DNA of 55,434 bases, counting the filler, from Sphacelaria rigidula (lineage: Eukaryota), in assembly GCA_964200075.2 (NCBI GenBank). It is 4 parts of 4 records of this genome, joined end to end, with 100 filler letters (N's around TTAATTAATTAA, not from the genome) between each part and the next. Parts side by side here need not be neighbours in the genome. Positions count along the whole stretch, not along the records: positions 13,890 to 27,675 come from CAXNAA020002669.1; 3 more parts are not named here. One strand, written 5' to 3'. This document shows, in pieces, positions 13,790 through 51,600 of this stretch (the stretch's first letter is position 1; each line of letters begins with the position of its first letter). The notes under the pieces are model-generated. The model did not search any database and was not told the origin of the DNA. It saw only the letters and a program-made list of their open reading frames with translations. The position numbers were made by a program, and so were the translations under genes.

Positions 13790-13889
13790 NNNNNNNNNNN
13801 NNNNNNNNNNNNNNNNNNNNNNNNNNNNNNNNNTTAATTAATTAANNNNNNNNNNNNNNNNNNNNNNNNNNNNNNNNNNNNNNNNNNNN
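13790..13889. other. Artificial contig spacer N44-TTAATTAATTAA-N44
   Basis: Six-frame stop linker inside Ns. Confidence 0.98.
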
Positions 13890-15977: not shown

Positions 15978-16443
15978 ATGGGAAAAGAAATCGATTAGCG
16001 GCGCGACATCAGCAAACCTGATTAAAAAAGGCAAATAGCATAAGGAAATTGTCTCCTCCAATGAAACCATCCCGTGAATGTCATATCAAGGACAGGGGTG
16101 GGCGGCCGACGAAAAGGCAAATGTGTTCGCTTTCATGTACAGTTTGTTCTAAGGGTGGTGTCATTCACCGAATACCAGTCCATATGCCATCGATTTCCAC
16201 CTCAGACCTGTGATGGGAAAAGAAATGGAGAACCGGCGCGACATCAGCAGACGTGATTCAAACGGGCGAATAGCGTAAGGGAATCTAATTCGCCAATATA
16301 ACTATTCCGTGGATGCCGTACCACGCACAGGGGAGGATAGCCGACGGAAAAGCATGTGTGTTCGCTTTCATGTACAGTTTGTTTCGGGGGTGATGTCATT
16401 TACCGAATACCAGTTCATATGCAATCGCTTTCCGCCTCAGACC
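15978..16443. repeat. Tandem duplication, 235-bp period, 2 copies
   Basis: atgggaaaagaaat...cggcgcgacatcagca...tgtgttcgctttcatgtacagtttgtt...cctcagacct at 15978 and 16213. Confidence 0.85.
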
Positions 16444-18154
16444 TTCGTCTGGTGGTGAGGTCTGTATATTGTCGGAGAGCGATGCCTAATGAATCGACTT
16501 ACTCCTTCCGTGCTGCCTGATGAATCGCCTCACTCCCTCCGTGCAGTTCAATTGCCAAATCCGCAGCTGCTCACAAAATCCTCGTGGAAAGAAATGACGA
16601 TGGGTAATGGTTTGTCCCTTCCTGTCGTTTCTCAGAGAAAGGGCTTTCCGTCCCGTCCCGGTCCGGCCCGACCCGACCTGACCTGACCTGACATACTTCC
16701 ATTTGTTTTGATGTCCCGTCGTTTGCCGGAGGAAAGGAAAACGTTCCCGTTCCGTTCTGACCCGGCACGTTGTACTTCGTTTCTTTTTTGCATCATTCTC
16801 CGTTCTCCTCACTACCTTGCTGGATGTTATTGCTGGATCGCTCGGCTAGTGTTCCGGCTCCCGTTTCATTTCGTCACTTGTGTTACGACTTCTAATGGGA
16901 TCAGGTGTGCAAAGCATCGGCGGCGTGTTGCGCGTAAAAAGACGACAGGCGGGTTATGTGACCTAGGAATGACTAGTTCTACAATCTGAGAGCACATCAG
17001 CCGTCTTTGACGATTTTTGGTGAGTGCAGTTTGACTATGGTTGAGGAGAAAACAAATGCGTGAATTTTGATACACGCCGATCAATCGTCTTGATCTTTTA
17101 TGCATTTTCGAGACTAGGGAAGGTTTGCACAAAACGCACCATTTTCATTTTTCTCGCCCAGAGTCAGAGTGCACCCACCGAGACTCGTCAATGTGTCCTG
17201 GAATCCTGTCAGATGATGAAGCATATCATTCCCAGATAAAATACCCCGTCCGGCCTACTACTCAGGCGCTCAACGTCAGCGAGGGGCCAAAATAGGCACT
17301 TTTGATCGGTTTGCACCTGTGGCTCCACAAGAAGCCGTTCTTCAATTTTTCTCCCCTCCTGTTCGCTGCTCCGTACTGTTCGGCTTTGCTCCGGCTTTGC
17401 TTTGACTTTGCCCCTCCGTGAGTCGTCGACGTCTCCTTTCTCGACCCCCCCCCATTATTTTTTTCTTTCTTTCTTTCCTCTCATCTTTTGTGTCCTGTCT
17501 TTCCCTGGTAGCAGCTGCACCTGCCGATGTCTTTTCATGTTCTCGTAGATATGTGTCATCCTGCTTATTTCCGGTGATCACGTGGTTGGTTTCTGCTGTG
17601 GCGCTGCTCAGAGTTTTCCCGTCCAGGCTTATCTGTTGGTTGTGTATTTCTTGCAGAGGGGAGACAGCTGCTTAGAGTTTCCCGTCGTTCAAGCTCCTGT
17701 TTTGATGGTGTGTTTCTTTCAGAGGGGGGACACCAGCCTGCAGCTCGCTACTGCAGTAAGGTACTCTCTCTACCGGAGGAGAAGCAATCCTTCTTTGCGT
17801 GGTTACCCCGGAACGGTACCTCTCGACTGCGGGTCTGAACACTCTGGTTAATGTGAGGGAGAGATGAGAAAGAAGGACACCCCTTCACGGTCTGATGAGA
17901 TATACCGTCAAAGAAACAGGGAATGCGTCCGATTCCGCGGGGAACTAAGATGACCTTTAGTTTTTTTTCAATCTGTACCTGATTTGATACAATGTTCTGT
18001 AGTGCCCTTGAATCTGACCCGATTTTGAGCACTATATATCGAGAAAATGAACCGACCAACTACATAGTCGGATGAATGCTGGAGAAATGAAACCTGAATG
18101 ACCCAATCAGAATCAATTTCAAGTACACGCGTCACCCGAAATGACGGCATCGCT

Positions 18155-18685: not shown

Positions 18686-21384
18686 ATTCATGTACTGTAG
18701 CTACGCTATATCGACGGCCTGCGGTGTGAACTATGTAAGGATGATATAATCATACTCTTTCTTTGGTTTGTGCTCGACATGTGTTTTCCCATCACTATTT
18801 TTTCTTGATTCCTTTTGACTCGATAAACCGATCCGTCGATATATCCAGAACCGGTGGGGAAGTACACGTTGAAACCTGTTGCCCGGGGGTAACCTCGTGT
18901 CCAGCTCATGTCGGCACGAACCCAACGTACATTGTGCCCTCCATACTCACAGCTGGAGCACATGTCAAGATCCGCATGGGTACTGTCTACGATGCAAAGC
19001 ATTGATCTTTGTCGAAAATCTCACTGAACCGTCGACGGTCTGGGTTCTACTCACCATGTTGTTCCGTCCGAGGGCAAGTTGGGAGGATATGGCATGAGGA
19101 GGGGAGGTTGAAAGGGTGCTGTATGTGAAGAACTGCTTTTGCATGATGCCATCAGGAGAATTGATTGAACTCTAGCGGTGATATTATTGTTAACAAAGAC
19201 ATGTAACACTATGTCATCAACGTGGGAGAAACTTATCAGACAGGATTGCAGTCGTGTGATGGTGGTAGGTTTGTAGCACTTGCGTATTGAGCCGATTGTG
19301 TGTGCCCTGTGTCTACCAAACTTGTTTTTTTTTTATTCCCGTTGCTCGAGTTTCCACCATTAATAGCAAGTGATGGCGTTTCGTTTACTTTGGGTGCGTC
19401 TATCGTGTGACCACGCCTGCATTACTCGGGAATCACCTAGTGTACGACAATAAAAAAACACGGAGGGCCCGTACGCGGAACCAGGAATAAATGAATAAAT
19501 GTCACGTATGTACCAAGTGACCAGGAACAAAAAGCGACGTCACACGGAGCTAAGTCTGTCGGCCTGCTGGAGTAAGTGCTGCAGAACCATCACCCCCGGT
19601 CTCGTGTTGGGGGCTGGGTGTATTTTTCTCCTAGAGGTATTTTCCACGCGTCCTGTGCACTGAGATGGTATAATTCGGAGGTGCTATTATGTGTTGATCT
19701 TCTCGGTAGCCGGAAACATCATTTTTCGGGGGTTAATGTGTTCAAAGTGCTGGTGCTAAACTTACTTCATTCTAGTGTGCTCCTTACTCGTGTTTTTTTG
19801 CTCCCAGCACCTCGGTTTCCAGTCCATACCAAACGATTAAAGACTGCCACGATCACATGCAGAGGGGTATCCCAATCGCATATGTTGTTGTGTGATTTAT
19901 CGTGACACACAAGGGGGGCGGTGCATATGGTGTATTTCCCTGCACATGTGAAGCCATATGCAGTCGCAAACTTAGCATCAACCCTTGAGGCACACTATGG
20001 AGTAGCTTCAAGGACATGGCTCAGTCCATCATGGCTACGTCGAGGATCGTGTATTTTTTTAGCATCGATGATGTAGCCATGCATTCGTTATGAGCTGTCT
20101 TGCGGAATTCATCGGGATTGTCATGTACCGGTGTTGAGGCGGGACCTGAGCGTTTTATAAAGTCCAACCACCGCGAAATTCATGTCTTGAAGCGTAGGGT
20201 TCACCGCTCAAGCCATACCGTGACTTCGCGACTTCCCTACGGAATGAACAATCCGTAGTCGGTAGACACCGATACCTACTACTCCTTCAACGAGTGAACC
20301 CAAGTAGTTTTATTTTCCTATGTCTCGAAGTGTACGGTTTACCCATCCATCTCATGTCTCCTGGTTGCGTTGAGTCTGAGTTTACCGAGTAGGTCCAGCA
20401 TTCAGTAAGGCACTGACTTTCGCTTCTCGTAAGGAGTGTTTGTTGCTTTCGTTGTCATCACCAGTCGTTTCAATCGCCTTCCCTCCAGTATGTCATTTTT
20501 TCGAGCTATTGCTTGGAAGATAGGTCGCTATTGACCAAGAATAAAGTAGGATTCATACATTTCCGGTAGGATTCCCGACTCACTCATGGAAAAATCAATT
20601 TTTGTGATGTAGTTCCACTTGCTTGTTCGATAATTTTCCGTACTCGGTTGTTACATGCATGCCAATGGGTCTTGTGGAAACTGAAGGATTGGTGGCTATC
20701 AGTCACCGAGAAACTCGCCTGCCTTTTGAGGGCTGGAGTCCTCGGCCGGTTGTGTCAATACGCACAACTACAGCGGCAGCACGTACCAGTGCAGAAATTG
20801 GCAGGATTGTACTTGAGCCGAAGACGTTAACATCCTCTCAATCATGCCACTTCATCCGCGCAATTGGTTGAAGTTGAGTGAAGGGAGTAAATATATACAT
20901 TTGGTAGTGTTTTTTGCGATCGATACCATCCCATTCTACTGATTTTTTGGCCGTAGTGTTTGGCATGTCTTTGTGTTGTTTTTTTGCATGGGCTGCGCAA
21001 TCCAATGGAGAACCAAGCCGAGGAATAATGTAGGGTTTTGCAAAATTCTCCCCCAGAGGAATTGGCAGCACTACGTCATGTTTCGGAAAAGGAGCCCCTC
21101 ACAGGGCAAAGGCCTACCCGATCTCATCACATTGTGAAGGTCCACACAAGATATGAGCCGTCCGTACTGACCATTTTCCCTCGAAGTACTGTACGCCTCT
21201 TTTGACAAAACACTTGACAATCTTCGACCCGGTTTTTTAATCCGTTCCTTAGCATCAGGCAGCACCAGGAGGGATAGCCTGCCCCTCTTGTTCGGCCATT
21301 TGACTGTGGGACTGCTAGAAGCAGCCGACATTGTGTGCGCTGGAGGCTTCCGTTTTGCCGACGTAGCGCCGATGCTGGCTTGGC

Positions 21385-21683
21385 AGTGCTCCCAAAAGGG
21401 CTGCTTGAAATGATTACCAGATGGCATGATGGGCGTCAACGTCGTGGAGCTGCCGATGGTCAATGAAATAAACAAAGAGTGCGGTTGACGACGGCATCTC
21501 CAAACAACCATCGCACTGTATAGAGTGAAGCCGGAAGGCGGGGTTCTGTGCCGATCACGCGGAGGGGGGGATGACTCCGCCAATGGGCAAAAGTGCAGCA
21601 ACTAGGGCTGCTCGAAACAACAATCGTACGGTGTAGCGGAAAGCCGGTTGGCGGAGTTCTGTGCTGCTCACGCTAGGGGAGGG
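21385..21683 (+). pseudogene. Decayed EsV-1-7 repeats upstream of the intact ORF
   Basis: Recognisable repeat DNA (gagtgcgg...tccaaacaaccatcg...agccggaaggcggggttctgtgccgatcacgcg; aagtgcagcaacTAGggctgctcgaaacaa) with stops and frameshifts, including GAG>TAG at 21603. Confidence 0.75.
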
Positions 21684-24005
21684 ATGATTGATGTTGTGAG
21701 GAAGAGGTGCGGCAGCGAGAGCTGCTCCAAACAACCATCGTATGGTGTAGCGGAGGGCCGGTTGGCGGAGTTCTGTGCCGACCACGCGAGGATGGGGATG
21801 ATAAATGTAGTGACGAAGAAGTGCGGCAACGAAGGCTGCTACAAACTCCCGTCGCACCGAGTAGCAGGAAGCCGGAAGCCGGAGTTCTGTGCCGCCCACG
21901 CGAGAGTGGGAATAGTAGATGCAGTAACGAAGAAGTGCGGCAACGACGGCTGCTCCAAAATCCCGTCGTTCGGAGTAGCAAAAAGCCGGAAGGCGGAGTT
22001 CTGTGCCGCCCACGCGAAGGTGGGGATGACTCTTGTAAGAGGCAAGGAGTGCGGCAACGAGGGCTGCTTCAAACAGCCATCGTACGGAGTAGCAGGAAGC
22101 CGAAAGGCGGAGTTCTGTGCCGACCACGCGAAGGTGGGGATGACTCACGTGAGAGGCAAGAAGTGCGGCAACGAGGGCTGCTCCAAACAACCATCGTATG
22201 GTGGAGCGGGCAGCCGGTTGGCGGAGTTCTGTGCCCGCCACGCGAGAGTGGGGATGATCGATGTGAAAAGCAGGAAATGTGGCAGCGAGGGCTGCTCGAA
22301 GCATCCATCGTATGGTGTAGCGGGCAGCCGGTTGGCGGAGTTCTGTGCCGACCACGCGAGAGTGGGGATGATCGATGTGAAAAGCAAGAAGTGCGGCAGC
22401 GAGGGCTGCTCCAAACAACCATCGTATGGTGTAGCGGGTAGCCGGAAGGCGCAGTTCTGTGCCGACCACGCGATAGTAGGAATGGCCAATGTAGTGAGCA
22501 AGAAGTGCGGCAGCGAGGGCTGCTCCAAACATCCATCGTATGGTGTAGCGGGAAGCCGGAAGGCGGAGTTCTGTGCTGATCACGCGAGGATGGGGATGAT
22601 CGATGTTAGGAGCAAGAAGTGCGGCAACGAGGGCTGCCCGAAAAACCCGTCGTATGGTGTAGCGGGAAGCCGGAAGCCGGAGTTCTGTGCCGACCACGCG
22701 AAGGTGGGGATGACTCATGTAAGGGGCAAGAAGTGCGGCAGCGAGGGCTGCGTCAAACTCCCATCGTACGGTGTAGCGGGAAGCCGAAAGGCGGAATTCT
22801 GTGCCGACCACGCGAGAGTGGGGATGGTCGGTGTGAAGAGCAAGCAATGTGGCAGCGAGGGCTGCTCCAAACAACCATCGTTCGGTGTAGCGGGCAGCCG
22901 GCTGGCGGAGTTCTGTGCCAGCCACGCGATAGTAGGAATGGCCAATGTAGTGAGCAAGAAGTGCGGCAGCGAGGGCTGCTCCAAACATCCATCGTATGGT
23001 GTAGCGGGCAGCCGGTTGGCCCAGTTCTGTGCCGACCACGCGAGAGTAGGAATGGTCAATGTAGTGAGCAAGAAGTGCGGCAGCGAGGGCTGCTCCAAAC
23101 ATCCATCGTACGGTGTAGCGGGAAGCCGGAAGGCGGAGTTCTGTGCTGACCACGCGAGGGTGGGGATGATCGATGTGAAGAGCAAGAAGTGCGGCAACGA
23201 GGGCTGCCCGAAAAACCCGTCGTATGGTGTAGCGGGAAGTCGGAAGGCGCAGTTCTGTGCTGGTCATGCGAGGGCGGGGATGGTCAATGTGAAGAGCAAG
23301 AAGTGCGGCAACGAGGGCTGCCCCAAACAACCATCGTACGGTGTAGCGGGAAGTCGGAAGGCGCAGTTCTGTGCTGGTCATGCGAGGGCAGGGATGGTCA
23401 ATGTAACGAGCAACCAGTACAGCAACGAGGGCTGCTCGAACCGGCGTGTGTACCTCGTTGATGACGCCGAACAGGGTGACATTTGCCAACATGCTGTATC
23501 TCAAGCAACAGGGCGAGGGCAACGTGGAGACATCTTCGATGAAAAATTAACCAAGGACGGACGACCTACTCATTCCATCAGTCACGGAGGTGGTGCGGGC
23601 GATGTTAGGTCCGACCCTGTCTTACTTGTAAGTTCCGAACTTGTTGTTACTGCGCCGTCGCAGCCTGCCGGGGGTGCCGAAGGCGGACCTCTGGGGACAA
23701 GGCCGTACACGAGGGTGAAATTGGAAGAGTTTGCTCCCGGTCAGCGTTCCAGGCAATGCTTGCGAAGGGGGGTTGGCGTGGCCACCTCCCCTGATGAAGG
23801 TGGGAGCAGCAGGATTCGCAGTAGCTCCAGTGATGGTTGTGATGGAAGAACGAAGAAGCGTATTTGCAGGATGCCGTCGATGGTTGGTGAACATCTTCGG
23901 ACAGAAGCTGTTGCGATGGATTCTCCTTCAGTGGTGTTTGATGGTGAAGAGGAAGGCACGAAGATCGAGCTGTCAGTTTCGGCTCCGTTTCCCCCCCTTG
24001 CGTAA
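21684..24005 (+). CDS. EsV-1-7 cysteine-rich repeat protein (15 complete 38-aa C-X4-C-X16-C-X2-H repeats plus a low-complexity C-terminal tail), intronless
   Basis: Open frame from just after the in-frame TAG at 21603-21605 to TAA at 24005; first ATG at 21684 (the ORF track starts at TTG 21648). Repeat consensus CGSEGCSKQPSYGVAGSRKAEFCADHARVGMIDVKSKK matches the EsV-1-7 motif known from phaeovirus EsV-1 and brown algal proteins such as IMMEDIATE UPRIGHT. The true start is uncertain. Confidence 0.9.
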   Translation: MIDVVRKRCGSESCSKQPSYGVAEGRLAEFCADHARMGMINVVTKKCGNEGCYKLPSHRVAGSRKPEFCAAHARVGIVDAVTKKCGNDGCSKIPSFGVAKSRKAEFCAAHAKVGMTLVRGKECGNEGCFKQPSYGVAGSRKAEFCADHAKVGMTHVRGKKCGNEGCSKQPSYGGAGSRLAEFCARHARVGMIDVKSRKCGSEGCSKHPSYGVAGSRLAEFCADHARVGMIDVKSKKCGSEGCSKQPSYGVAGSRKAQFCADHAIVGMANVVSKKCGSEGCSKHPSYGVAGSRKAEFCADHARMGMIDVRSKKCGNEGCPKNPSYGVAGSRKPEFCADHAKVGMTHVRGKKCGSEGCVKLPSYGVAGSRKAEFCADHARVGMVGVKSKQCGSEGCSKQPSFGVAGSRLAEFCASHAIVGMANVVSKKCGSEGCSKHPSYGVAGSRLAQFCADHARVGMVNVVSKKCGSEGCSKHPSYGVAGSRKAEFCADHARVGMIDVKSKKCGNEGCPKNPSYGVAGSRKAQFCAGHARAGMVNVKSKKCGNEGCPKQPSYGVAGSRKAQFCAGHARAGMVNVTSNQYSNEGCSNRRVYLVDDAEQGDICQHAVSQATGRGQRGDIFDEKLTKDGRPTHSISHGGGAGDVRSDPVLLVSSELVVTAPSQPAGGAEGGPLGTRPYTRVKLEEFAPGQRSRQCLRRGVGVATSPDEGGSSRIRSSSSDGCDGRTKKRICRMPSMVGEHLRTEAVAMDSPSVVFDGEEEGTKIELSVSAPFPPLA
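21708..23417 (+). repeat. Coding tandem array, 15 x 114 bp (EsV-1-7 repeats)
   Basis: Exact 114-nt period with no indels over 15 units; a 16th degenerate unit (YSNEGCSNRRVY...CQH) follows. Confidence 0.95.
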
Positions 24006-25879: not shown

Positions 25880-26440
25880 GTCCTGTAGGGTACGGTTTTC
25901 TATATACCCGGGATATTTTGCCGAGTATTTACCGTACCCGACAGTCCTGTGACTTCTGTAAGACTTTCATACTGGTACCCGATAGTTCTGTAATATCTGT
26001 AAAACTTTCATACCCTTACCCGATTGTTCTGTAATCTCTGTGAGACTCCCGTACCGTTACCGGGGGGCACGGGTACGCTCTTGGTAACATATATAATTGC
26101 GTGAACGGTTTTTTGTGCAACCTCCATACCCTACCCGAATCTTTCTGGGACTTCTGTAAGCCTCCCATACCCTTACCCGACAGTTCTGTGAGTTTTGTAC
26201 AGAATGTTTTTACCCCTACCCGGAGCGCCGGCATGCTCTTGAAGAAATACCCGATTGCCGGTACCGGTTCTCCGTGAGTCTCCCATACCGTACCCGACAG
26301 GTTCTGTAATTTATGTGAGACTTTCATTCAGTAACGGTACTCGACAGTTCTCTGAGCTCTCTAACGTCCTGTATCCCTACCCGGAGTTAGGGTATACCGT
26401 TATAGATGTACCAGATTGCAGGTATGAGCACAGGTATATA
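25880..26440. repeat. TACCCGACAGTTCTGT subrepeat element, copy 2
   Basis: Same 5' end (ctgtagggtacggttttctatatacccgg) and internal units as 51265-51843. Confidence 0.75.
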
Positions 26441-27675: not shown

Positions 27676-27775
27676 NNNNNNNNNNNNNNNNNNNNNNNNN
27701 NNNNNNNNNNNNNNNNNNNTTAATTAATTAANNNNNNNNNNNNNNNNNNNNNNNNNNNNNNNNNNNNNNNNNNNN
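27676..27775. other. Artificial contig spacer
   Basis: Same linker. Confidence 0.98.
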
Positions 27776-28993: not shown

Positions 28994-31900
28994 CTATGCA
29001 ATACGCGAAACAACAGCCCGAGAGAGAGACAGAGAGGGACAGAGAGACAGAGAGACAGACACAGACAAAGAGACAGACACAGACAAAGAGACAGACACAG
29101 ACACAGACACAGACACAGACACAGACACAGACACAGACACAGACACAGACACAGACACAGACACAGACACAGACAAATACAAAGAGACAGACACAGACAG
29201 ACAGACAGAGAGGGGGGGAAGGGGGGAATCGGAGGGCGTTATGTTCGCAACACAAGGCACTAGACAGACTCGCACGTCCAGCGTCTTATTGCCGTTGACG
29301 TCAAAACAAGGCGTGTCCACTTTCCGACAGGGATGAGTGCCAGGGTTGAGGAGAGGACGCATGTCGACGCACAGGAACAATGCGGGTGATGCTGTACGTA
29401 ATGTCTCGTGCGCTGATCGTTCGGTAGAATGGGACAAACATCGATTCCCCGTCACTGCGATGACTTTTCTCCATCTTGCTGTCTTTGTCAACACACACCC
29501 GATTGGGGACGGACAGCCCAAATGTTAACGAGGAAATCGTCCGATAATGCTGGATAGCGGAGGTATGTTTCATGCACGGGTCGTGGCTCCTCACAAGGGG
29601 GGGCAGGGGGGGTTGTTAATCATGGGGCGGGGAGGGGGGGGGAGGGGGCGCAGTCATTTGTTGCTTGTCTCAGTCGTGTGACCATTAACCATTTAACCCT
29701 TTCGAGACCGAGCACCGTTCCTACCCCTAACAGAGACACCTCCAACATTTGGGCGTTCATCATGTTTTTTCCGTGTATTACGCAAAACCTTAAACACATC
29801 TTATCCCCGTTCAGTGGCGGGGAGGGGGCAGGGAGGGACATATTTAATGGCGTTATCCACTTCCGTGTGTGCATCGTAATCGCGAGAGTTATCTGCCCGT
29901 GTGTGACAGCGATGCAGTTCGCGCCGAAATCGATATGATTGGGCTACTACCCGCGCTTTGCACTTCCTCCCAGAAAACCAGTCTGTACTAAGAGACGACA
30001 GGAGAGCACGAAACAGAAGGGGGGGGGGGGCGAACCCTACAAGTGTATCACTTTCTTGCCGCACAATGAAAAATGTTTCCAGCAAGATGCAGACACATAT
30101 ACACACGCAGTGATTGACAACAGGAGAAACAATCCGCCAGCGAGAGAAACAGACCCGCGCTCACCTCGACACTCTCCGATGATAGAGCCAGCGCTACAAC
30201 TCCGAAACCAAGATGAGTCCACGATTAGGCGATTCAAACCACGGTAGAACCCACTCGAGGGTTCACAAAATAAATACCACGCATGATGAGACGAAAACAT
30301 CATGGCGGGAAAAAAAAAAAAAAATCACGAAGCAACAGGAAAAGCAAGAAAGACCACGGGGAAAACAATCTTTCAGCGCTTAAAAACCAAAAGGTTGCAA
30401 CACCTCGAACTCTCCGTGTCGCCTATCATTTTCCCAAGTGCCAATGATTCGCCCTCCGCTCTCGTCCTCCAGGACACCCTTGCCGGACCGCTGTCCAGCT
30501 TCCAACTGCCCAGTGTAGGAAGATCCGTTGCTGTATCGTATAAGCCCTTGGCCGTGAGGTTTACCCTGGAGGAAATTGCCGTAGAAGGCTTCCTGTTGTT
30601 TTCAAACAACAGTGAGGGGCATGGATTCAGGAAAGAGAGGCAGGGGGGAATGAATTTGTATTCACCACGGTTGCCGTATGTAGTGAAGGGGAGGATGAGC
30701 TGCGGACGGGGACGGGGGGGCGGGGGGTGTACTCATGATCTTGCACGCCGTAGTCATAAGATCATTGATCTCGCATCCGGAGGGGAAACGGGAGGGGGGA
30801 GAGGGGAGGGAGGCGTCTTGTGGTTCCGGTCTTCATCGCCAGGAAGGAGGGTAGATATGATGGTGAATCGTACGTTGAATCGTGCTTACCTGCAAAAACA
30901 TACATTACGAATGTCCTAAGGAGCATGCCGTCCAGGCTGGGCCCTTTGCGGTGGCATACAAAACTGCTTTGAGTTTCTCTACCTTTGCCAGCAGATCAGC
31001 CATCCATGGTGCATACGACAATGGAAGTATAAATATTCAAAAGCAATTCTTTGGTAACTCGATTTGGGAAACATTCTCTCTCTCCGTCAGTCGTTAACCT
31101 CACTTGCGCTTTGATGACATAGGAATTACCCTTTTGCGACTTTTTATCATGAGGGAACAACATTGCACAGTTGGTGGTAGTATACAGCTTTTTCTCTTTT
31201 ATTTTTATTTTATCGCGAAAACCTCCGATATGGGTTTCTATTTAAACTCACTTACCCTCATTGCGGTCACGTAAAGGCCCTTGCCCTCCCGATTGCCATT
31301 TTTAGCCTGTCCTGCGTACATTGATCCGTCGGGCCATCTCCAAACTCCCTCTCCGTGCATGGCGCCGTGATCGAACTCTCCTGCAAGGGTAGGGCAAACG
31401 CAGGAACAGAGGGGGGGGGAATACAACGCTTCAGAAGTACAGTAAGCCGCGCGGTATAATATTCGGAGTACTTGAACTTTGGAGGTGCAGCAGTAGTGTA
31501 TAGATGGAGTCATGCGCACCGGAAAAATCGGATAGATAGACAGGACCTTGTTTTTGCGAGCAAATTGGCAGCTCATATCGTTATGTCATCAGGGATCAAA
31601 ATCGTCTGTGTTTTTTGTTGTCTACAAGGCATATGCATGCGGGCTTTGAAGCCACTATACTCCCGCATGAACGTCCAATAGGGCAGATGGCATCAATCAA
31701 ATGAGAAGAGTACGAGCGTGTGTCTGGCTGGTTGGCTGCCTGCCTACTTTCCATGACAGAAAGGACTTTGCGTGCTAGCTCAGTTCATGATATTCTAAAT
31801 CGTTCGTTCTATTCATTGCGCTACAATCACCGTTTAGGGCGACCACCGCGATATTTTTCTGACCAGAAAAAGCCCGCAAGCAAGCATTCTGCCAATCCGA

Positions 31901-34257
31901 TTTGGCTCCATGTACTTCTCGCCGAGGTGCGCATATAACTTGCAGGAGGGTAAGGTTCGCCGACCGTGACTTAGTCAGCAAATTTATGTCAAGACCATGT
32001 ATATAAATCACAGAAGTATCGCACACAGCATAGATCGTGCTAAACGATCCATAGGTGACAGAGGATGCCCCCCCACGAATTAAGAAACGCCCCACCCCCG
32101 ATCTATCTAAAAACAAAGTCCCTGCACTGCGGTAGACTTCCGGTCAACGGGATACCTCGATGAGATATTCCTACCGACACAACGCTTGGCGACGGGGTCC
32201 GCCGCGCGTTTGCAAGTAAAAAACAGCTCGAGATTTGTCATCGCCCAGAGCGATACACTCTGGATCATGACCTACGGTACTGTTACGAGTACACAATGAT
32301 CGTACCAGATCCCCAAGATCCTAAAGCTGCTGGATGACGAAAAAACGCCGCTCTGTTATACCGTCCACCATTAGACCTGTGGTTATTATAAGGACAAACC
32401 TGCGTGCACACAAGTCTGCAGATTTTACGCTTATACCAGCTAGTAGACTCGGTTTGGAGTTCTGAGACTTGGACCAGAGTCCTTAGGGGAAAGTGTTTTC
32501 GGCTCGGTGGGACGAGGCCAGACTCATTACCCCATTTTCCGGACGTTGAGGTTTGACGTATCATCGTGTCGCGCAGAGTTGTGCAGTTGTAAACATATGG
32601 AAGGGTTGCAACATTCGTTTTCTGCGTATACATATTTGATGCGGCACAACTACGCGCAACATGGTGATATATCAGACGTCGACGTCCGAAAACATCGGAA
32701 AATTGGTTCGGTTGCATCGCACTGAGCCGAAGAACTTTTCCCAAGGGGGTTCGGTGCAGAAACCGAATCTATGGACCAAAATTACCCGTAAAGAAGACCA
32801 GATTCGGCAGATTTTTGTGCACGCAGATCCGTTCCCCAGTAATAACTGGTCATACCATCCCCTACCGTACTAAAAAATTAGGTACACAAAGTATGTTATG
32901 TTGGCGTGCACGATAGCCAACATGCAACCGGAAACGAAAAAATCGAATGAGGTGTGCGAGGCCTAGTCTATGTGTTGGGCTACTTCGAAATAGTACTCTG
33001 ACCAACGACGGCTTCCATCAGACATGGACGAACTCAAAGTCACGACAGCATTGCGCTTTCTGCCGCTCTGGACACGAAAGGATAAGGCACGTTGTATGTT
33101 CACCGTGCAGATTCGCGTACGCTAATGGTCTTCCTTCACATGCTAACGACATGCCGAAGATGATCGTCGTAGTTCCACCAGACGGACATTTTACCGTGCT
33201 TGAAATGTGCTACGCACTTTTTTTCTCCCTGAAGACTTCATTCGACCTTCGCATTTCGTGTATGAAATCCGCAAACCGAATACCTTGAAACTTTCATATG
33301 ATACATATAACTATCTACAGGTAAACATCGACAACGTCAACGCGCGGCCATCAGGTAAGACGGCACTCCGAAGTATATTTTCATTATGTAGTCCTGCATC
33401 AGGCAGGCGGCAACTTGGTGCGGTGTATTTTGTTCGTATCATCATTTTCGTGCACACATACAGCTCGCCTTCGTAGGATGCACCGTCCGGAGCGACAAGC
33501 ATCCCGAAGCCTTGGCGTTGACCCCGGTACCAGCCGCCGCAGTACTCTGTGCCATCCGCGTAGTGATACTCTCCCATCCCGTGCTTCTGCTCGTCCAGCA
33601 TGTCTCCCTCGTAAACCTTTGCACGCGCAGTACGTAGCGTGAAGTCATTCGATTCCACCTTCCAGGAACCAATGAGTACAGTAGCCGCTAGTACGCTGCT
33701 CAAGGGGTATGTTGAAAATGTTCTACCGCTTTGTACTGTCGGCGCTCTGGTATTGACCCACCAGCCCGGTGGGGATTTCGCGACGTGCCTCCACCACAGG
33801 AGCACCTCCTCCGCCGTTCAGACGCAGTATCTATTCCATCGGTGAGCCAAAGAAATACTTGTTGACACCCAGAGAGCCCCATACGACTTCATTCGAGGCT
33901 AGTCTAGAGACTCCGATTTCTATAGGAAGTAGTTTTTCTTCATTGTTTCGGTGTTTGCAGAGCTCAAGTACGGGTGTTTTGTTTTTCGAACGGCGTGGTG
34001 ATACGTACCGCCACCTACAGTACATATATGGACAATATATCCGCCAAGGTACGCACTTTTGTGACAGAAAAAAAACAGTCGTTTTTGTTTGTTTCAATCG
34101 AATCGGGTAAGTTGGGATTTCGATGGCTTCAAGGAAACGCTGTTGTTGTATCGTCTGTGATTCCACCTCTTCTTTTTTGTAACAAGTGAAAAATGCCACA
34201 ACCATCGTAGCCGAAATACGACACCAAAACTATTGTTGTTGTTCTTGTTGTTATTGC

Positions 34258-41555: not shown

Positions 41556-41655
41556 NNNNNNNNNNNNNNNNNNNNNNNNNNNNNNNNNNNNNNNNNNNNT
41601 TAATTAATTAANNNNNNNNNNNNNNNNNNNNNNNNNNNNNNNNNNNNNNNNNNNN
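41556..41655. other. Artificial contig spacer
   Basis: Same linker. Confidence 0.98.
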
Positions 41656-48621: not shown

Positions 48622-51600
48622 ATGAAAACGGCGCAGATCCTGCCGCTGACGCTACTCGCTGGGGTCGCAGTGACTGTAACACACGGGTGTCATCTACGTG
48701 GCGACATTAATAAGTTGAACCCCCACAACAAGAATGTTGATCTCAACGAACCTCTAAGAAAAAATGGACTCACCTTTAACGCAAGGGTGCCACAAGACCT
48801 GCAAGGGTTGCCCGCAGTTCCCGCCCGCGGGTCTGGCGCCCTCACGGCACAGGCTCAGGTGTACAGGGGGGTGACCAAGAACGTGGATGCTAACGGACAC
48901 CAGAACCCCGCAAGCGCTGCGAGAGATAAGAAAAGAGCGGTCAAGATCGAGACCCCTGAAGAGATTGTTCGGCACCGTGAGGCTGCGTTATTGCTGTCAC
49001 GAGACTGCGCCGATGAAATGGAGAAGTACGTGTGTAAGATTGGGTTCATGCCTGCGAGGTGCCTGAGGAAACACCCTCTGTCGGACCGTTGCGGGAAGGC
49101 TCTGGTATCGTGGTGAGTTGAATGGAGTAGGGGTGTAGATGCTGTTCTGTAGGGTTGTTTAGGTTGTGCTTTTTGTCGAAATACTCTAGTACTCAATCGT
49201 ACCATTTGTCTTGTGTTCATCCCAAAAAAGTCTGCGTTCAGTTCAAGATGGCAAACTGAAAAACTTTTCGCCACACCGCTCCAATATGCATTCCTCCCTC
49301 GCAGTAGTGCTAGATTATCGGTAGGTATCGCGACGAGGGGTTCACCGAAAGGCCTCTATACCCTCAACTCCTACAGTTGCTCCTTTTCAGGTGGCATGTC
49401 TTGTGCAAATGTCCTTTCATTTCATGTTTGCGAGGCATCTACGCGGATTTCAATATCACGGGGACGGCGACACCGTCCTCGTCAGAAACTGTGACTGCAA
49501 CTCTTCGAGTCCATCATAGTCCCAGGCGGCTCAACAATAAAAGCAGTTCTTGCCATGCCATAAAGAGCTCGAGAAGCACAGAAGAGTATTCACCTCATCT
49601 ACCGGAGCGTTTGGAGTACTAAAGTGACGTGCAATAAAATATCTGATGGAGATGAAGAAAGGCAGTACTCACGTACGTGCTCAGCCGCTTCAAGTAGTAT
49701 GCCATGTGGTAGCGGGGAAAGGATGAGGAGCGCATCGACAGCTGTGCATAAGATGCGCATACAAGGCTAGCACCCTTGACATTGCAAAATTACATCTGTA
49801 TTACAGACAGTGGTGGTTCGTCCCATTATTATTATCGAGCAAAGTACGAAGCCTATTTGTCCGATTTTTATTCGTTCCGGACTGTCTGTACGTGATACCT
49901 CATTCCATTTCACTTTACTCCGAAGCAACGGATGACCCACCCTGGAGTAGACACGTGCTCCATGTTCTCTTCAACACCGGACGGGTGCTGAACAGACGGC
50001 ACGGCGCACAAGGCGGCACTGATGGGCTCAACACAACTAACGAACAGAAAAACAAAAATGCAGTCGTGATATTTGTTCCGGTACACGACGCGTTATCCGC
50101 CTTGGGTTCACTGTGCCGCTGGCTGTGGCACAAAGCCGCAGCTCCGTTCCCTCCATAAATTCTCGGCGTGCAATTATACACGGGTGAGAAGCAAGCAAGT
50201 ATAAAGTTATGAGCTTTTACACTTGGAATTATCAGTGTAGAGCAGTTTATTTATTTTCGAGCTGGCGATGGGAGGTCACGCAGACGAAATGCACGCCCGA
50301 CAGTGAAAAGCGACTACATAGTGCGTACACAAAATTCCAAGTTTGTGCCCTGTAGGGTACAGTTTTCTGTATACCCAGGGTATTTTCCGTAGTATTTTAC
50401 CGTATCCGACAGTTCTGTGAAAATACCCCGACAGTTGTGTAATCTCTGGAAGACTTTCATACCCTTAGCTGATAGTTGTGTGAGTTCTGTACAACCTCCA
50501 TGCTCTTCTCGACAATAACTGTGAGGTCTTCGAGCCTCCCATAACCCCACCCCAACAGTTCGGTGAGTTCTGTACAGTATGTTCACCCGTACCCGGAGCG
50601 CGGGTATACTCTTGAAGAAATACCCGATTGCCAGTACGTTTTTTCTGTAATCCTCCCGTACCGTACCCGACAGTTCTGTGACCTCTGTCGGCCTTCCATA
50701 CCCCTACCCAGGGTTAGGGTATACCCTTGTAGATATACCCGATTTCAGGTACGAACACAAGTACATACCTTGGGGAATTATGGAGATAGGTTCAATCCAA
50801 GCACAACCTTGGATCTCAACATGTACCTCCCATCGACCATCCCACACTACTCCTTCATTCAACACTACACACCAACAATAATTCAATGTTGGAAAGTTCT
50901 CGAGTTTGACATCTGACGGGATACGAAGTACTGCTGAGTGGAAACACGAAACAAGAACAGCACTGCAGACAGTCAGGACGGATCCCCCCCCGACTCGAGT
51001 GGTGGCTCGAGCGGGGGCGGTTCATCTGCGCGACCAGGGGATCAAGCAGCAAGACGCACGTCATCGACGTTGATGGTTCTGTCGCAGTCATCAAACCCCA
51101 GGCCGTTATCGGCATGCACAGCAAAGAGTATGACGCCACCGGAAGCAAAGGCCATCGACGATTGTGTCGTGCCGAAGGGCTTCCAGAGCGTGCAGCCGTG
51201 AATTCTCCTTCATGTACTTCCTGTGAGTGTTGGTGTGGTCTTTCTTCATAAACCCCGTGAAGTCGTGTTCTGTAGGGTACGTTTTTCTGTATATCCGGGG
51301 TATTTTGCGGGTATTTACCCTACCCTAGAGTTCTTTGACTGCTGCAAGACTTTCATACCGGTACCCGACAGTTTTGTAAACTGTGTTAGACATTCATTTA
51401 GGTACCCGACAGTTCTGTAAACTCTGTGGGACCTTCATACCCGTGCCCCATAGTTGTGTAAGTTCTGTAAGCCTCCCGTATCGTTACCGGGGGGCACGGG
51501 TATGCTCTTGATGAGATACCCGGTTGCGGGCACGGTTTTCTGCGCAACCTCCATACCCTGCCCGACAATTTCTGTGAGGTCGTTTAAGCTTCCCATACCC

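What the first reader, a model, noticed from the sequence alone, without database searches (positions are those of the whole stretch)
21708..23417. EsV-1-7 array looks like a modular recognition scaffold with repeat-variable positions
Seen: 15 equal-length repeats keep invariant C,C,C,H ligands and a K-x-PS motif. The two residues flanking the K after Cys2 vary from unit to unit: S/Q, Y/L, S/I, F/Q, S/Q, S/H, S/Q, S/H, P/N, V/L, S/Q, S/H, S/H, P/N, P/Q. The residue before His (D/A/R/S/G) and the linker (MIDVKS, MANVVS, MTHVRG, MVNVVS) also vary. Established: the EsV-1-7 motif is a putative zinc-binding repeat shared between phaeoviruses and brown algae; I know of no defined ligand. Inference: a fixed scaffold with a few variable positions is how TALEs and C2H2 zinc-finger arrays work, so this may be an undescribed code-based nucleic-acid or protein recognition system.
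Basis: partly seen in the sequence, partly recalled or inferred. Interest (0 to 1): 0.8.

Follow-up and report, generated by a model that had tools for sequence, protein, structure and literature searches.

The report
Brown-alga EsV-1-7 zinc-repeat array gene
This is an apparently intact gene for a protein made of fifteen small zinc-binding repeats of a known but functionally unsolved brown-alga and giant-virus family, and its unit-to-unit differences look like ordinary drift at loosely constrained positions and not like a proven recognition code.

Summary
Window 21708-23417 holds 15 gap-free 38-residue units, all C-x4-C-x16-C-x2-H, and all 15 listed residue pairs are correct. It is a member of the known EsV-1-7 family (Pfam PF19114, 16 matches, E 6e-231). 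It lies in a gene-poor, non-viral setting. The likely gene is 21684-24005, 773 residues. It has decayed units upstream, a decayed 16th unit and a low-complexity tail.

The "code" reading is only partly supported. Variation is concentrated at positions 3, 7, 9, 25, 28, 29, 32, 33, 35 and 36. These evolve at about the synonymous rate: ratio 1.00 for the ten, 1.32 for the six most variable. The scaffold is at 0.18. Only position 9 is faster (2.1-2.4-fold, P 0.015-0.04 uncorrected). That does not recur in two independent arrays. The repeated S/H and P/N pairs trace to a block duplication and a mosaic unit.

A single unit models as a three-stranded β mini-domain (pLDDT 88). The array carries net charge +49. 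77 of 116 relatives, mostly metagenomic, share an endonuclease-like tail; the window's tail shows no similarity to it. DNA targeting is plausible but untested.

The parts
21454..21593 (+). Decayed upstream repeat copy (about 1.2 units) with frame-breaking indels and in-frame stops; no longer coding in the array's frame
   Evidence: Local alignment to the consensus unit needs several 1-2 nt gaps. The translation shows TGA stops in the unit frame. The tandem-repeat finder starts the array at 21498.
21594..21707 (+). Unit 0: a full-length unit without indels (21 nt from consensus), disabled by TAG at 21603-21605 where the consensus has Glu4. Its conserved Met31 (ATG 21684-21686) is the first in-frame start of the long frame.
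   Evidence: Eight of 120 homologues begin the same way (M-V-N/D-V-x-x-x-x-Cys1), plus one variant.
21684..24005 (+). Proposed coding sequence, single exon, 773 residues plus TAA. It comprises an 8-residue leader, 15 units, a decayed 16th unit and a tail.
   Evidence: Stop-to-stop frame 21606-24005. Start and stop checked. No disabling lesion in 2322 nt, against at least four in the 254 nt upstream. Not confirmed by RNA.
21708..23417 (+). 15 intact EsV-1-7 units of 38 residues (114 nt each), C1-x4-C6-x16-C23-x2-H26. Predicted strands at unit positions 12-14, 20-22 and 31-33; basic linker at about 35-38.
   Evidence: anatomy; Pfam; single-unit model, pLDDT 88; net charge +49, pI 9.4.
22392..23417 (+). 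Higher-order duplication. Units at 22392, 22506, 22620 and 22734 pair with the units 570 nt downstream (7, 5, 16 and 22 nt differences). Unit 22620 is a mosaic: its first 38 nt are identical to 23190 and the rest resembles 22050.
23418..23498 (+). Decayed 16th unit: Tyr in place of Cys1, Cys6 kept, C-x1-H in place of C-x2-H; 70 of 114 nt differ from the consensus.
23499..24002 (+). C-terminal tail, Gly/Ser/Arg-rich, with no Pfam family. It has a V-K-L-E motif (23715-23726) and a terminal E-E-E-G-T-K-I-E-L-S-V-S-x-P motif (T-K-I-E-L-S-V-S at 23958-23981). Both are shared weakly with tails of Sphacelaria homologues.
   Evidence: hhalign probability 35%, E 4e-4 to the brown-alga tail cluster; 0.1% to the conserved endonuclease-like tail shared by most homologues.
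21555..23546 (-). Antisense open frame of 663 codons running through the array. Judged a by-product of a G+C-rich repeat whose complement lacks stops, not a gene.
   Evidence: Its periodic translation mirrors the repeat. No family match was sought for it.

Best explanation

Shown:
- 15 uninterrupted 38-residue units, each with Cys1, Cys6, Cys23 and His26.
- Purifying selection on the scaffold.
- A 5' end that has decayed, while the frame from the ATG inside unit 0 stays open.
- Growth of the array by unit and block duplication, with exchange between units.

Predicted: each unit folds on its own as a tiny three-stranded β-sheet domain. The C-x4-C knuckle precedes strand 1 and the C-x2-H knuckle follows strand 2. 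Units are joined by about four basic residues. Orientation between units is not fixed, as in beads on a string.

Inferred:
- Each unit holds one zinc ion through C, C, C, H.
- The strongly basic array binds a polyanion, most likely DNA, through several units at once, in the manner of poly-zinc-finger proteins.
- The Gly/Ser/Arg-rich tail with conserved short motifs is the effector or regulatory part.
- The differences between units are mostly near-neutral divergence at loosely constrained positions since duplication. Position 9 (the x of K-x-P-S) is the fastest-changing site and the best candidate for a ligand-contacting residue.

There is no evidence for a discrete two- or three-residue code.
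For: Family membership:
- PF19114 at 746 bits, 16 stretches.
- 231 homologues at E<=1e-5 among the 8000 candidates scored. The best named ones are from Sphacelaria rigidula, Pylaiella littoralis and Ectocarpus ('EsV-1-7'), at up to 61% identity.
- The top viral structural match is EsV-1-7 of Ectocarpus siliculosus virus 1, E 1e-16.

Host setting: of 85 other open frames of 110 codons or more, only two reach a Pfam cut-off, both MORN repeats. There is no dense viral gene set.

Live gene:
- Pairwise pN/pS among units is 0.34; tree-based it is 0.41; in five independent closest pairs it is 0.28.
- There is no indel or stop in 21684-24002, against at least four lesions in the 254 nt upstream.
- Eight of 120 homologues have the same M-V-N/D-V...Cys1 start.

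Fold:
- The single-unit model has pLDDT 88 with strands at 12-14, 20-22 and 31-33.
- The four-unit model has pTM 0.35.

Drift reading:
- The ten variable positions show 53.5 non-synonymous changes against 53.4 expected at the synonymous rate. The other 28 positions run at 0.18.
- Block duplication and a mosaic unit explain the recurring residue pairs.

DNA reading:
- Net charge is +49 and pI 9.4; family units average +2.6.
- 77 of 116 homologue tails form one conserved C-terminal domain with invariant acidic and basic residues.
- The nearest named Atlas clusters for that tail are DUF559 / very-short-patch-repair endonuclease, at 0.86, which counts as a lead only.
- One tail hits a PHROG named HNH endonuclease, E 2e-5.
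- Four of 29 significant BFVD matches are named Endonuclease and one DNA primase.
- A Tc1/mariner transposase with an N-terminal EsV-1-7 domain is reported in PMC12477816 (passage read).
- The zinc-finger transcription-factor hypothesis is quoted in PMC12629598 (passage read).
Against: - No ligand, no zinc binding and no expression was shown here.
- The sequencing runs laid were contigs of uncertain kind, so transcription and the start codon are unconfirmed.
- The decayed 5' end leaves short upstream frames ahead of the proposed ATG, so a recently dead gene is not excluded.
- The window's own tail shows no similarity to the endonuclease-like domain (hhalign probability 0.1%). The nuclease context therefore applies to relatives only.
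- That domain is not recognised by Pfam (no nuclease family among the 25 most-matched families listed for 48 members), NCBIfam, PDB sequences or a phage tblastn.
- The only long fused forms found (2 of 5599 candidates) carry a ubiquitin hydrolase with a MYND finger, or dynein domains. These point to protein partners or to merged gene models.
- No solved fold matches the unit: best Z is 2.2-2.8, to RING domains. The structural class is therefore unplaced.
- Position 9 does run above the synonymous rate in this array, so some diversifying pressure cannot be excluded.
Confidence: 0.6

Rival explanations
1. One reading: the array is a code-based recognition scaffold. Each unit reads one element of a nucleic acid or protein target through a few repeat-variable residues (7, 9, 25 and the 32-36 stretch), as in TALE or C2H2 zinc-finger arrays.
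For: - Variation is concentrated: entropy is 1.7-2.1 bits at positions 7, 9, 25, 32, 33 and 35, against 0 at 14 positions.
- Position 9 has the highest mean within-array entropy in 56 other arrays, 1.73 bits.
- Position 9 shows 12 non-synonymous changes against 5.8 expected (P 0.015) on the tree, and a ratio of 2.44 (P 0.04) in five independent closest pairs.
- It differs in 7 of 10 closest unit pairs.
- Units keep their individual residues between orthologue-like proteins: identity at position 9 is 0.68, against 0.10 between non-corresponding units.
- Related arrays sit in front of a tail domain with weak endonuclease leads, where sequence targeting would make sense.
Against: - The P values are uncorrected for 34 testable sites and do not survive correction.
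- The tree has weak support (33-99) and the units are mosaic, which inflates the counts.
- Positions 7 and 25 are at or below the synonymous rate in closest pairs, 1.14 and 0.88.
- In independent arrays L001 and L008, positions 7+9+25 run at 0.44 and 0.75 of the neutral expectation. Position 9 alone runs at 0.62 and 0.94.
- The recurring pairs are explained by descent.
- There is no coupling among positions 7, 9 and 25: ranks 122-164 of 703 pairs.
- In typical arrays half of the unit varies, unlike TALE repeats.
- Between orthologue-like units, positions 7, 9 and 25 are less conserved than average. That argues against fixed unit-specific constraint.
Confidence: 0.12
2. The array is a protein-protein interaction or scaffolding module, like RING, LIM, MYND or B-box zinc domains, and not a nucleic-acid binder.
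For: - The only structural neighbours are RING domains, at insignificant scores: Z 2.2-2.8, rmsd 2.5-2.7 over 35-38 residues.
- One long fused form joins 11 units to a USP-type ubiquitin hydrolase with DUSP and MYND domains.
- A cluster of giant-virus relatives is named for an ArfGap domain present in 20% of its members.
- Papers read give the function of IMM as unknown (PMC7457493, passage read).
Against: - The fold matches are below any useful threshold.
- The fused forms are 2 of 5599 candidates and may be merged gene models.
- Net charge +49, the weak endonuclease leads on relatives' tails and the reported transposase fusion favour DNA.
Confidence: 0.18
3. The locus is a dying or dead copy: a 5'-truncated pseudogene of a large, fast-turning-over family, whose open frame persists only because the lesion is recent.
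For: - Upstream units carry TAG and TGA stops and frameshifts.
- The array ends in a decayed unit.
- The family is very large and tandemly amplified (Denoeud et al. preprint, passages read).
- K-mer depth over the array is tens to hundreds of times that of the flanks in DNA-like runs, so many near-identical units exist elsewhere.
Against: - At least four lesions fall in 254 nt, and none in the next 2322 nt. If lesions fell evenly, all four landing in the first tenth has a probability of about 1e-4 (my arithmetic).
- pN/pS is 0.28 even between the most recently separated unit pairs.
- All 60 ligand residues are intact.
- The start at the unit's conserved Met is shared by annotated homologues.
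Confidence: 0.08
4. The gene belongs to an integrated phaeovirus (giant-virus) element and not to the host.
For: The family is named after a phaeovirus gene, and many relatives are on giant-virus contigs.
Against: - The 55-kb window has only ten stop-to-stop frames of 180 codons or more, four of them inside the array.
- It has no viral marker family.
- The tail resembles brown-alga host copies and shows no similarity to the conserved tail carried by the giant-virus relatives.
Confidence: 0.02

Closest known systems
EsV-1-7 domain proteins of brown algae (Pfam PF19114 / IPR043822), including Ectocarpus IMMEDIATE UPRIGHT (IMM) and the unnamed Sphacelaria rigidula, Pylaiella littoralis and Ectocarpus homologues
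   Same: - Same C-x4-C-x16-C-x2-H unit and the same 38-residue period.
- Same architecture: a short leader, an array, then a tail of about 180-290 residues.
- The same start at the unit's Met in eight homologues.
- Weakly similar tail motifs.
- The family is described as a possible novel class of zinc finger with 2018 members in 31 genomes (preprint 10.1101/2024.02.19.579948, passages read).
   Different: - 15 intact units, against 4-9 in the nearest named homologues.
- No homologue above 61% identity.
- The units here are unusually alike (83% mean column identity), so variation is confined to about ten positions.
- Positions 32 and 33, conserved family-wide, vary here.
- IMM has a unique N-terminal domain and five repeats. 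This gene has none upstream of the array.
Giant-virus EsV-1-7 array proteins (EsV-1 gene 7, UniProt Q8QNQ2; metagenomic Nucleocytoviricota proteins, several named 'Endonuclease')
   Same: The same unit and arrays of 5-16 units. The structural match is E 1e-16 to 1e-10. Within-array variability also peaks at position 9.
   Different: 77 of 116 homologue tails carry a conserved C-terminal domain, with a C-x2-C...C-x2-C cluster and then R-P-D...E-x-D-E-x-Q-H...R-x-N-P-D. There are weak leads linking it to Vsr/DUF559-type endonucleases. The window's tail shows no similarity to it.
C2H2 poly-zinc-finger proteins (for example KRAB-ZNFs, PRDM9)
   Same: It works like them in outline: tandem one-zinc mini-domains with short basic linkers, a flexible string, growth by unit duplication and exchange, and variation concentrated at a minority of positions. 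That C2H2 contact residues show dN/dS above 1 is recalled, not tested here.
   Different: - The ligand order is C,C,C,H with different spacing, and the period is 38 residues.
- The predicted fold is all-β with no recognition helix.
- No C2H2 family was reported by Pfam.
- There is no significant excess of non-synonymous change at the variable sites.
TALE repeats (Xanthomonas) with repeat-variable di-residues
   Same: Equal-length tandem units with a few recurring residue pairs at fixed positions.
   Different: TALE units are helical and metal-free, and are near-identical outside two residues (recalled). Here the units are zinc-type β domains, about ten positions vary, synonymous divergence between units is large (pS 0.34), and the recurring pairs are explained by descent.
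First (Cys3His) zinc finger of the plant SBP DNA-binding domain (Pfam PF03110) and the WRKY19 zinc finger (PF24906)
   Same: - Unit positions 1-36 align without gaps to SBP profile positions 1-36.
- 14 of 50 family members give sub-threshold SBP matches (best E 0.0012). 14 of 50 match Zf_WRKY19 (best E 5e-9, above the cut-off in one protein).
- The first SBP finger is Cys3His (PMC5768680, passages read). Its identical C-x4-C-x16-C-x2-H spacing is recalled.
   Different: - The SBP score for the window's units is 16.3 bits against a cut-off of 27.
- The second SBP zinc site is absent.
- No SBP structure appeared in the sequence or fold searches.
- The window's units gave no Zf_WRKY19 match.

Membership tests
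EsV-1-7 cysteine-rich repeat family (PF19114) | Match to the family profile above the curated cut-off | tested here: met
   746.3 bits against a cut-off of 25, E 6.1e-231, 16 stretches, each covering profile positions 1-35.
EsV-1-7 cysteine-rich repeat family (PF19114) | C-x4-C-x16-C-x2-H ligand pattern in tandem units | tested here: met
   15 of 15 units. A 38-residue period is the commonest spacing in homologues.
EsV-1-7 cysteine-rich repeat family (PF19114) | Relatives in brown algae and Nucleocytoviricota | tested here: met
   The best named hits are from Sphacelaria, Pylaiella, Ectocarpus, Ascophyllum and Scytosiphon. Viral hits include EsV-1-7 itself.
EsV-1-7 cysteine-rich repeat family (PF19114) | One zinc ion bound per unit | not testable with these tools
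   Inferred from the invariant ligands only. The models carry no metal.
TALE-type repeat code | Units near-identical except for two hypervariable residues | tested here: not met
   Ten positions have entropy of 1 bit or more. Units differ at 5-32 of 114 nt.
TALE-type repeat code | Helical, metal-free repeat fold | tested here: not met
   The model is all-β with Cys/His ligands. The TALE fold itself is recalled.
C2H2 zinc-finger arrays | C2H2 ligand set and ββα fold; Pfam zf-C2H2 match | tested here: not met
   The ligands are C,C,C,H. No helix is predicted. No C2H2 family was reported at E<=0.01.
C2H2 zinc-finger arrays | Excess of non-synonymous change at the specificity positions of paralogous fingers | tested here: inconclusive
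   Position 9 runs at 2.1-2.4 times the synonymous rate, P 0.015-0.04 uncorrected. This is not replicated in L001 and L008. Other variable sites are at or below 1.1 in closest pairs.
SBP domain (PF03110) | Profile match above the cut-off covering both zinc sites (about 75 residues) | tested here: not met
   16.3 bits against 27; only profile positions 1-36 are aligned.
Vsr/DUF559-like endonuclease tail of the giant-virus relatives | The conserved C-terminal domain (R-P-D...E-x-D-E-x-Q-H...R-x-N-P-D) present in the window's protein | tested here: not met
   hhalign of the 77-member tail alignment against the window's tail gives probability 0.1%. The window's tail is a singleton in the BLAST clustering.
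Vsr/DUF559-like endonuclease tail of the giant-virus relatives | That the relatives' tail domain is really a DUF559/Vsr-type or HNH nuclease | tested here: inconclusive
   Leads: Atlas features score 0.86, one PHROG hit at E 2e-5, and depositors' names. No match in Pfam, NCBIfam, PDB sequences or the phage collection.

The most novel reading that the evidence does not exclude
EsV-1-7 arrays are a third natural kind of modular DNA-reading scaffold.
- In giant viruses they aim a C-terminal endonuclease at chosen sites, as natural zinc-finger nucleases of a selfish or defensive kind.
- Brown algae kept the aiming arrays, replaced the nuclease with regulatory tails, and expanded them into hundreds of transcription regulators.
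- Each 38-residue unit would read a short stretch of DNA through the extended segment after the first knuckle. Position 9, with 7 and 11, would be the main determinant, and position 25 in the second knuckle would contribute.

On this reading the 15-unit protein in the window would recognise a long composite site.
Probability: 0.15. Interest if true: 0.85.

Novelty: new member of a known kind. Interest (0 to 1): 0.4.

Why it matters
EsV-1-7 proteins are among the largest gene-family expansions of brown algae. The family has 2018 members in 31 genomes and forms the largest orthogroup in a 2026 atlas (passages read). It includes the developmental regulator IMM. None of the passages read in the six papers opened states what the repeat binds.

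This window adds a long, clean 15-unit example. It is useful as a test object: the units are alike enough that a handful of positions carry nearly all the differences. The analysis narrows the hypothesis in four ways:
- The unit is probably a self-contained β mini-domain.
- The supposed linker is part of the fold.
- Only position 9 shows any hint of accelerated change.
- Most relatives, largely metagenomic and giant-virus, join the array to a conserved tail with weak endonuclease leads. That makes DNA targeting the first thing to test.

If DNA reading were shown, the family would matter for brown-alga developmental genetics, and possibly as a new programmable scaffold.

Tried and rejected
- Whole-genome search: no genome is held for this window. 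It was replaced by the 15 units, 478 units from 120 homologues, and two independent arrays with DNA.
- Expression: no RNA holder is listed. Runs X6-X8 are only guessed to be RNA. They cover unique flanks at depth 2-3, so they look like low-coverage DNA. All laid data were contigs. This says nothing on transcription, start or splicing.
- Solved-structure sequence searches with three profiles (A1, A2, A3) found nothing meaningful. The results were low-complexity hits, none, and a plastocyanin copper loop at E about 1.
- Fold searches. Foldseek against PDB gave no match at E<=0.001 for the 4-unit model and no match at E<=10 for the 1-unit model. VIA-align wide gave a best Z of 2.8 and 2.2, to RING domains. 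These are too weak to place a 38-residue fold.
- ESM Atlas on the 4-unit piece gave no usable hit outside PF19114.
- Related DNA. The family-wide unit alignment had no stretch conserved enough to search with. Subfamily patterns found no relative in viral contigs or metagenome contigs. P0002 was not found in viral contigs. In metagenome contigs P0002 retrieved only L002, a 30%-identical relative.
- Identity of the relatives' tail domain. No nuclease family appeared in Pfam (48 members, 25 families listed), NCBIfam (10 proteins), a PDB profile search, tblastn against 50,697 phage records, or a search for short stand-alone homologues, which gave one unnamed hit. The viral records were not held for the genome search.
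- Covariation among positions 7, 9 and 25: none.
- DUF1490, Phe_ZIP and similar sub-threshold Pfam rows are summed weak matches over repeats with no single passing stretch. They were ignored.
- Macaisne et al. 2017, the founding paper, is not held. Its content is known here only through citing papers. Supplementary tables of the two preprints (lists of EsV-1-7 genes) were not opened and may hold the orthologue of this gene.
- No structure with zinc or DNA could be predicted, and no model coordinates are returned. 'Variable residues on one face' remains untested.
- Complex prediction was not used, because no protein-protein claim is made.

Full report
**Observation.** The tandem-repeat finder reports a single array at 21498-23437 with period 114, 17.0 copies, 83% matches and no indels. 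The stop-to-stop frame 21606-24005 on the + strand is 799 codons. A six-frame pattern scan finds 15 intact C-x4-C-x16-C-x2-H units with Cys1 at 21708 + 114k. It also finds one more unit at 21594 that carries an in-frame TAG, and no other family-like unit in the 55-kb window.
- the 15 residue pairs around K8, in order;
- invariant K8, P10 and S11;
- D/A/R/S/G before the His;
- the four quoted 'linker' strings.

Pfam PF19114 (EsV_1_7_cys) matches 16 times, at 746 bits and E 6e-231.

**Gene anatomy.** The 254 nt upstream of the first intact unit are decayed repeat DNA.
- From 21454 the sequence aligns to the consensus unit only with several 1-2 nt gaps, and it has TGA stops.
- Unit 0 (21594-21707) has no indel, but TAG replaces Glu4.
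- The first in-frame ATG (21684) is the conserved Met31 of unit 0. It gives an 8-residue leader before Cys1.
- Eight of 120 homologues start the same way, plus one variant. 60 of 120 have Cys1 within 15 residues of the N-terminus.
- After unit 15 comes a decayed unit (Tyr for Cys1, C-x1-H; 70 of 114 nt from consensus). Then comes a Gly/Ser/Arg-rich tail ending at TAA 24003-24005.

There are at least four disabling lesions in 254 nt and none in the following 2322 nt. This argues that the frame from 21684 has been kept by selection after the 5' end decayed. The probability figure in the report is my own arithmetic.

**Setting.** The window is not a viral insert. Only ten stop-to-stop frames reach 180 codons, and four of them lie in the array. 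Among 85 other frames of 110 codons or more, only two MORN-repeat pieces reach a Pfam cut-off. No whole genome is held.

**Relatives.** 231 proteins match at E<=1e-5 among the 8000 candidates scored. The nearest named ones are from brown algae (Sphacelaria rigidula, Pylaiella littoralis, Ectocarpus 'EsV-1-7', Ascophyllum, Scytosiphon), at no more than 61% identity. Many others come from metagenomes.

Papers describe the family as follows:
- a possible novel class of zinc finger;
- 2018 members in 31 brown-alga and sister genomes, often in tandem gene arrays;
- containing the developmental regulator IMM (preprint 10.1101/2024.02.19.579948, passages);
- the largest orthogroup in a 2026 expression atlas (preprint 10.64898/2026.04.27.720984, passages);
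- of unknown function (PMC7457493, passage);
- hypothesised to be zinc-finger transcription factors (PMC12629598, passage);
- present at the N-terminus of a Tc1/mariner transposase (PMC12477816, passage).

The founding paper, Macaisne et al. 2017, is not held. Searches for 'EsV-1-7' alone, with 'zinc finger' and with 'DNA-binding' returned 11, 5 and 3 papers. Six papers were opened, only around the search terms. None of the passages read states a ligand or a recognition code.

**Where the variation sits.** With Cys1 as position 1, entropy among the 15 units is highest at 9 (2.07 bits). Then follow 33 (1.97), 32 (1.91), 35 (1.83), 25 (1.74), 7 (1.69), 28 and 36 (1.24), 29 (1.10) and 3 (1.00). 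Fourteen positions are invariant.

In 478 units of 38-residue period from the 120 homologues, positions 7, 9 and 25 are among the most variable, but so are many others. These units were selected by the ligand pattern, so ligand invariance there is by construction. In 56 arrays of five or more units, mean within-array entropy is highest at 9 (1.73), 36 (1.70), 35 (1.46) and 11 (1.41). It is 1 bit or more at 18 of 34 non-ligand positions. The window's profile correlates only moderately with the family's (Spearman 0.39 and 0.50). The 'fixed scaffold with a few variable positions' is therefore a property of this young, homogeneous array and not of the family.

*Pairwise Nei-Gojobori over all 105 unit pairs*:

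| Sites | pN/pS or dN |
|---|---|
| All sites | pS 0.339, pN 0.139, ratio 0.34 |
| 28 scaffold positions | 0.18 |
| Six most variable positions | dN 0.63, against a global dS of 0.45 |

*Maximum-likelihood tree of the units, supports 33-99*: parsimony counts give 56.5 synonymous and 82.5 non-synonymous changes, omega 0.41.

| Sites | Observed / expected at the synonymous rate | P (uncorrected) |
|---|---|---|
| Ten variable positions | 53.5 / 53.4 (1.00) | 0.49 |
| Six most variable | 1.32 | 0.046 |
| 7+9+25 | 1.57 | 0.02 |
| Position 9 alone | 12 / 5.8 | 0.015 |

These sites were chosen after seeing the data, and there are 34 testable sites, so none of these survives correction.

*Five independent closest unit pairs*: pN/pS is 0.28. 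Position 9 runs at 2.44 times pS (P 0.04), position 7 at 1.14 and position 25 at 0.88.

*Two independent, similarly homogeneous arrays on giant-virus contigs, L001 and L008, 8 units each*: positions 7+9+25 run at 0.44 and 0.75 of the neutral expectation. Position 9 alone runs at 0.62 and 0.94.

*Six orthologue-like protein pairs at 66-77% identity, 31 gap-free unit pairs*: identity at positions 7, 9 and 25 is 0.55, 0.68 and 0.61. This is below the mean of 0.71 for non-ligand positions, and far above the 0.07-0.14 seen between non-corresponding units. Units therefore keep individual identities, but these three sites are not specially protected.

Mutual information shows no coupling among positions 7, 9 and 25 (ranks 122-164 of 703).

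**Why residue pairs recur.** Shifting the array by five units gives the highest self-identity (0.852). Unit pairs 570 nt apart differ by only 7, 5, 16 and 22 nt. Unit 22620 is a mosaic: its first 38 nt are identical to unit 23190 and the rest is close to unit 22050. The repeated S/H and P/N pairs are thus inherited or exchanged patches. They are not an independently re-selected small alphabet. The mosaicism also inflates the tree-based counts at codons 7 and 9.

**Structure.**
- A four-unit model is middling: pLDDT 69 and pTM 0.35 (50-row alignment).
- A single unit with a 107-row alignment is confident: pLDDT 88, with strands at 12-14, 20-22 and 31-33.
- In the four-unit model the first unit forms its sheet without the preceding M-I-D-V, and the last unit, which lacks its own 31-33, does not. 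The domain is therefore Cys1 to about Val34 of one unit, and the true linker is about positions 35-38.
- No solved structure matches by sequence or by fold. These negatives are weak for so small a domain.
- Coordinates are not returned, so the 'one face' test could not be done.

**What it may bind.**
- The 15 units carry net charge +49 and pI 9.4. Family units average +2.6.
- Foldseek against predicted viral structures finds 29 matches at E<=0.001. EsV-1-7 of EsV-1 leads at 1e-16. Four matches are named Endonuclease and one DNA primase by their depositors.
- Clustering the C-terminal tails of 116 proteins puts 77 in one group. These are mostly metagenomic and, where known, giant-viral. The group has a conserved domain with a four-Cys cluster and invariant or near-invariant D, R-P-D, E-x-D-E-x-Q-H, E..R and R-x-N-P-D.
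- For that tail the nearest named Atlas clusters by language-model features are DUF559 / very-short-patch-repair endonuclease. At 0.86 this is a lead only.
- One tail hits a PHROG named HNH endonuclease at E 2e-5.
- Pfam, NCBIfam, PDB sequences, the phage collection and a short-protein search do not confirm a nuclease.
- Ten brown-alga tails, nine from named Sphacelaria proteins, form a second and unrelated cluster (hhalign probability 5.6%).
- The window's tail resembles that second cluster weakly (probability 35%, E 4e-4). The shared features are a V-K-L-E-type motif and the terminal E-E...K-[IL]-E-L-x-V-S-x-P motif. It does not resemble the endonuclease-like tail (probability 0.1%).
- Sub-threshold Pfam matches link the unit to the first, Cys3His finger of the plant SBP DNA-binding domain. 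Unit positions 1-36 align to profile positions 1-36, in 14 of 50 members, with best E 0.0012. They also link it to the WRKY19 zinc finger, in 14 of 50 members.
- Long fused forms are rare, 2 of 5599 candidates. They join the array to a ubiquitin hydrolase with a MYND finger, or to dynein domains.
This was not tested here.

**Verdict.** This is an ordinary, probably live member of a known family. It is remarkable mainly for its length and homogeneity. The most likely mechanism is a string of one-zinc β mini-domains that binds DNA through many units. The unit differences are mostly near-neutral. Position 9 is the one site worth mutating first. The TALE-like code is not supported by the tests that could be run, but it is not excluded either. 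The family's ligand remains an open and now sharply testable question.

Noticed in passing
homologues P0002-P0119 (tails); loci L001, L003-L009: 77 of 116 homologue tails share a conserved C-terminal domain of about 180 residues. It has a C-x2-C...C-x2-C cluster and then R-P-D...E-x-D-E-x-Q-H...R-x-N-P-D. Weak leads point to Vsr/DUF559-type or HNH endonucleases. The architecture 'EsV-1-7 array + nuclease-like tail' in giant-virus relatives was not mentioned in the passages I read.
   Followed up: partly
window 23715-23726 and 23958-23981: The window's tail shares two short motifs with Sphacelaria homologues: V-K-L-E or M-K-V-E, and a C-terminal acidic run followed by K-[IL]-E-L-x-V-S-x-P. They resemble the hydrophobic-K-x-E SUMO-acceptor consensus. 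That consensus is recalled, not tested.
   Followed up: partly
unit positions 21-32, e.g. window 22338-22373: The best PDB sequence match of the family unit profile is the copper-binding loop of plastocyanin, E about 1. It shares the same C-x2-H-x4-M spacing as C23-H26-M31. Pfam Copper-bind and the NCBIfam plastocyanin model also give sub-threshold hits in some homologues. Met31 is kept in 430 of 478 units. This is probably chance or a hydrophobic core residue, but a fifth metal ligand is not excluded.
   Followed up: no
window 21308-23466 (read laying bins): In four sequencing runs the summed contig depth over the array is tens to hundreds of times that of the unique flanks. In X1, for example, it reaches 15534 against about 63-80. 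Many pieces also fit two places. The source genome therefore holds very many near-identical EsV-1-7 units elsewhere.
   Followed up: no
window 21555-23546 (-) and 21692-22441 (+): Long open frames on the opposite strand (663 codons) and in a second + frame (249 codons) run through the array. They look like by-products of the stop-poor, G+C-rich repeat (G+C 0.59, against about 0.49 in the flanks).
   Followed up: no
window 31241-31585 (-) and 33314-33817 (-): Two open frames carry MORN repeats (E 5e-9 and 1e-7). They are probably exons of one minus-strand gene, and they are the only other recognisable coding signal in the window.
   Followed up: no
window 13790-13889, 27676-27775, 41556-41655: Three pairs of 44-base N runs lie about 13.9 kb apart. 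The regular spacing suggests masking or scaffolding and not biology.
   Followed up: no
window 29023-29211, 15978-16444, 25930-26061 and 51347-51468: Other repeats in the window: an AGACAC hexamer array (26 copies) under a cluster of overlapping open frames on both strands; a 235-nt tandem duplication; and two related 41-nt arrays 25 kb apart.
   Followed up: no
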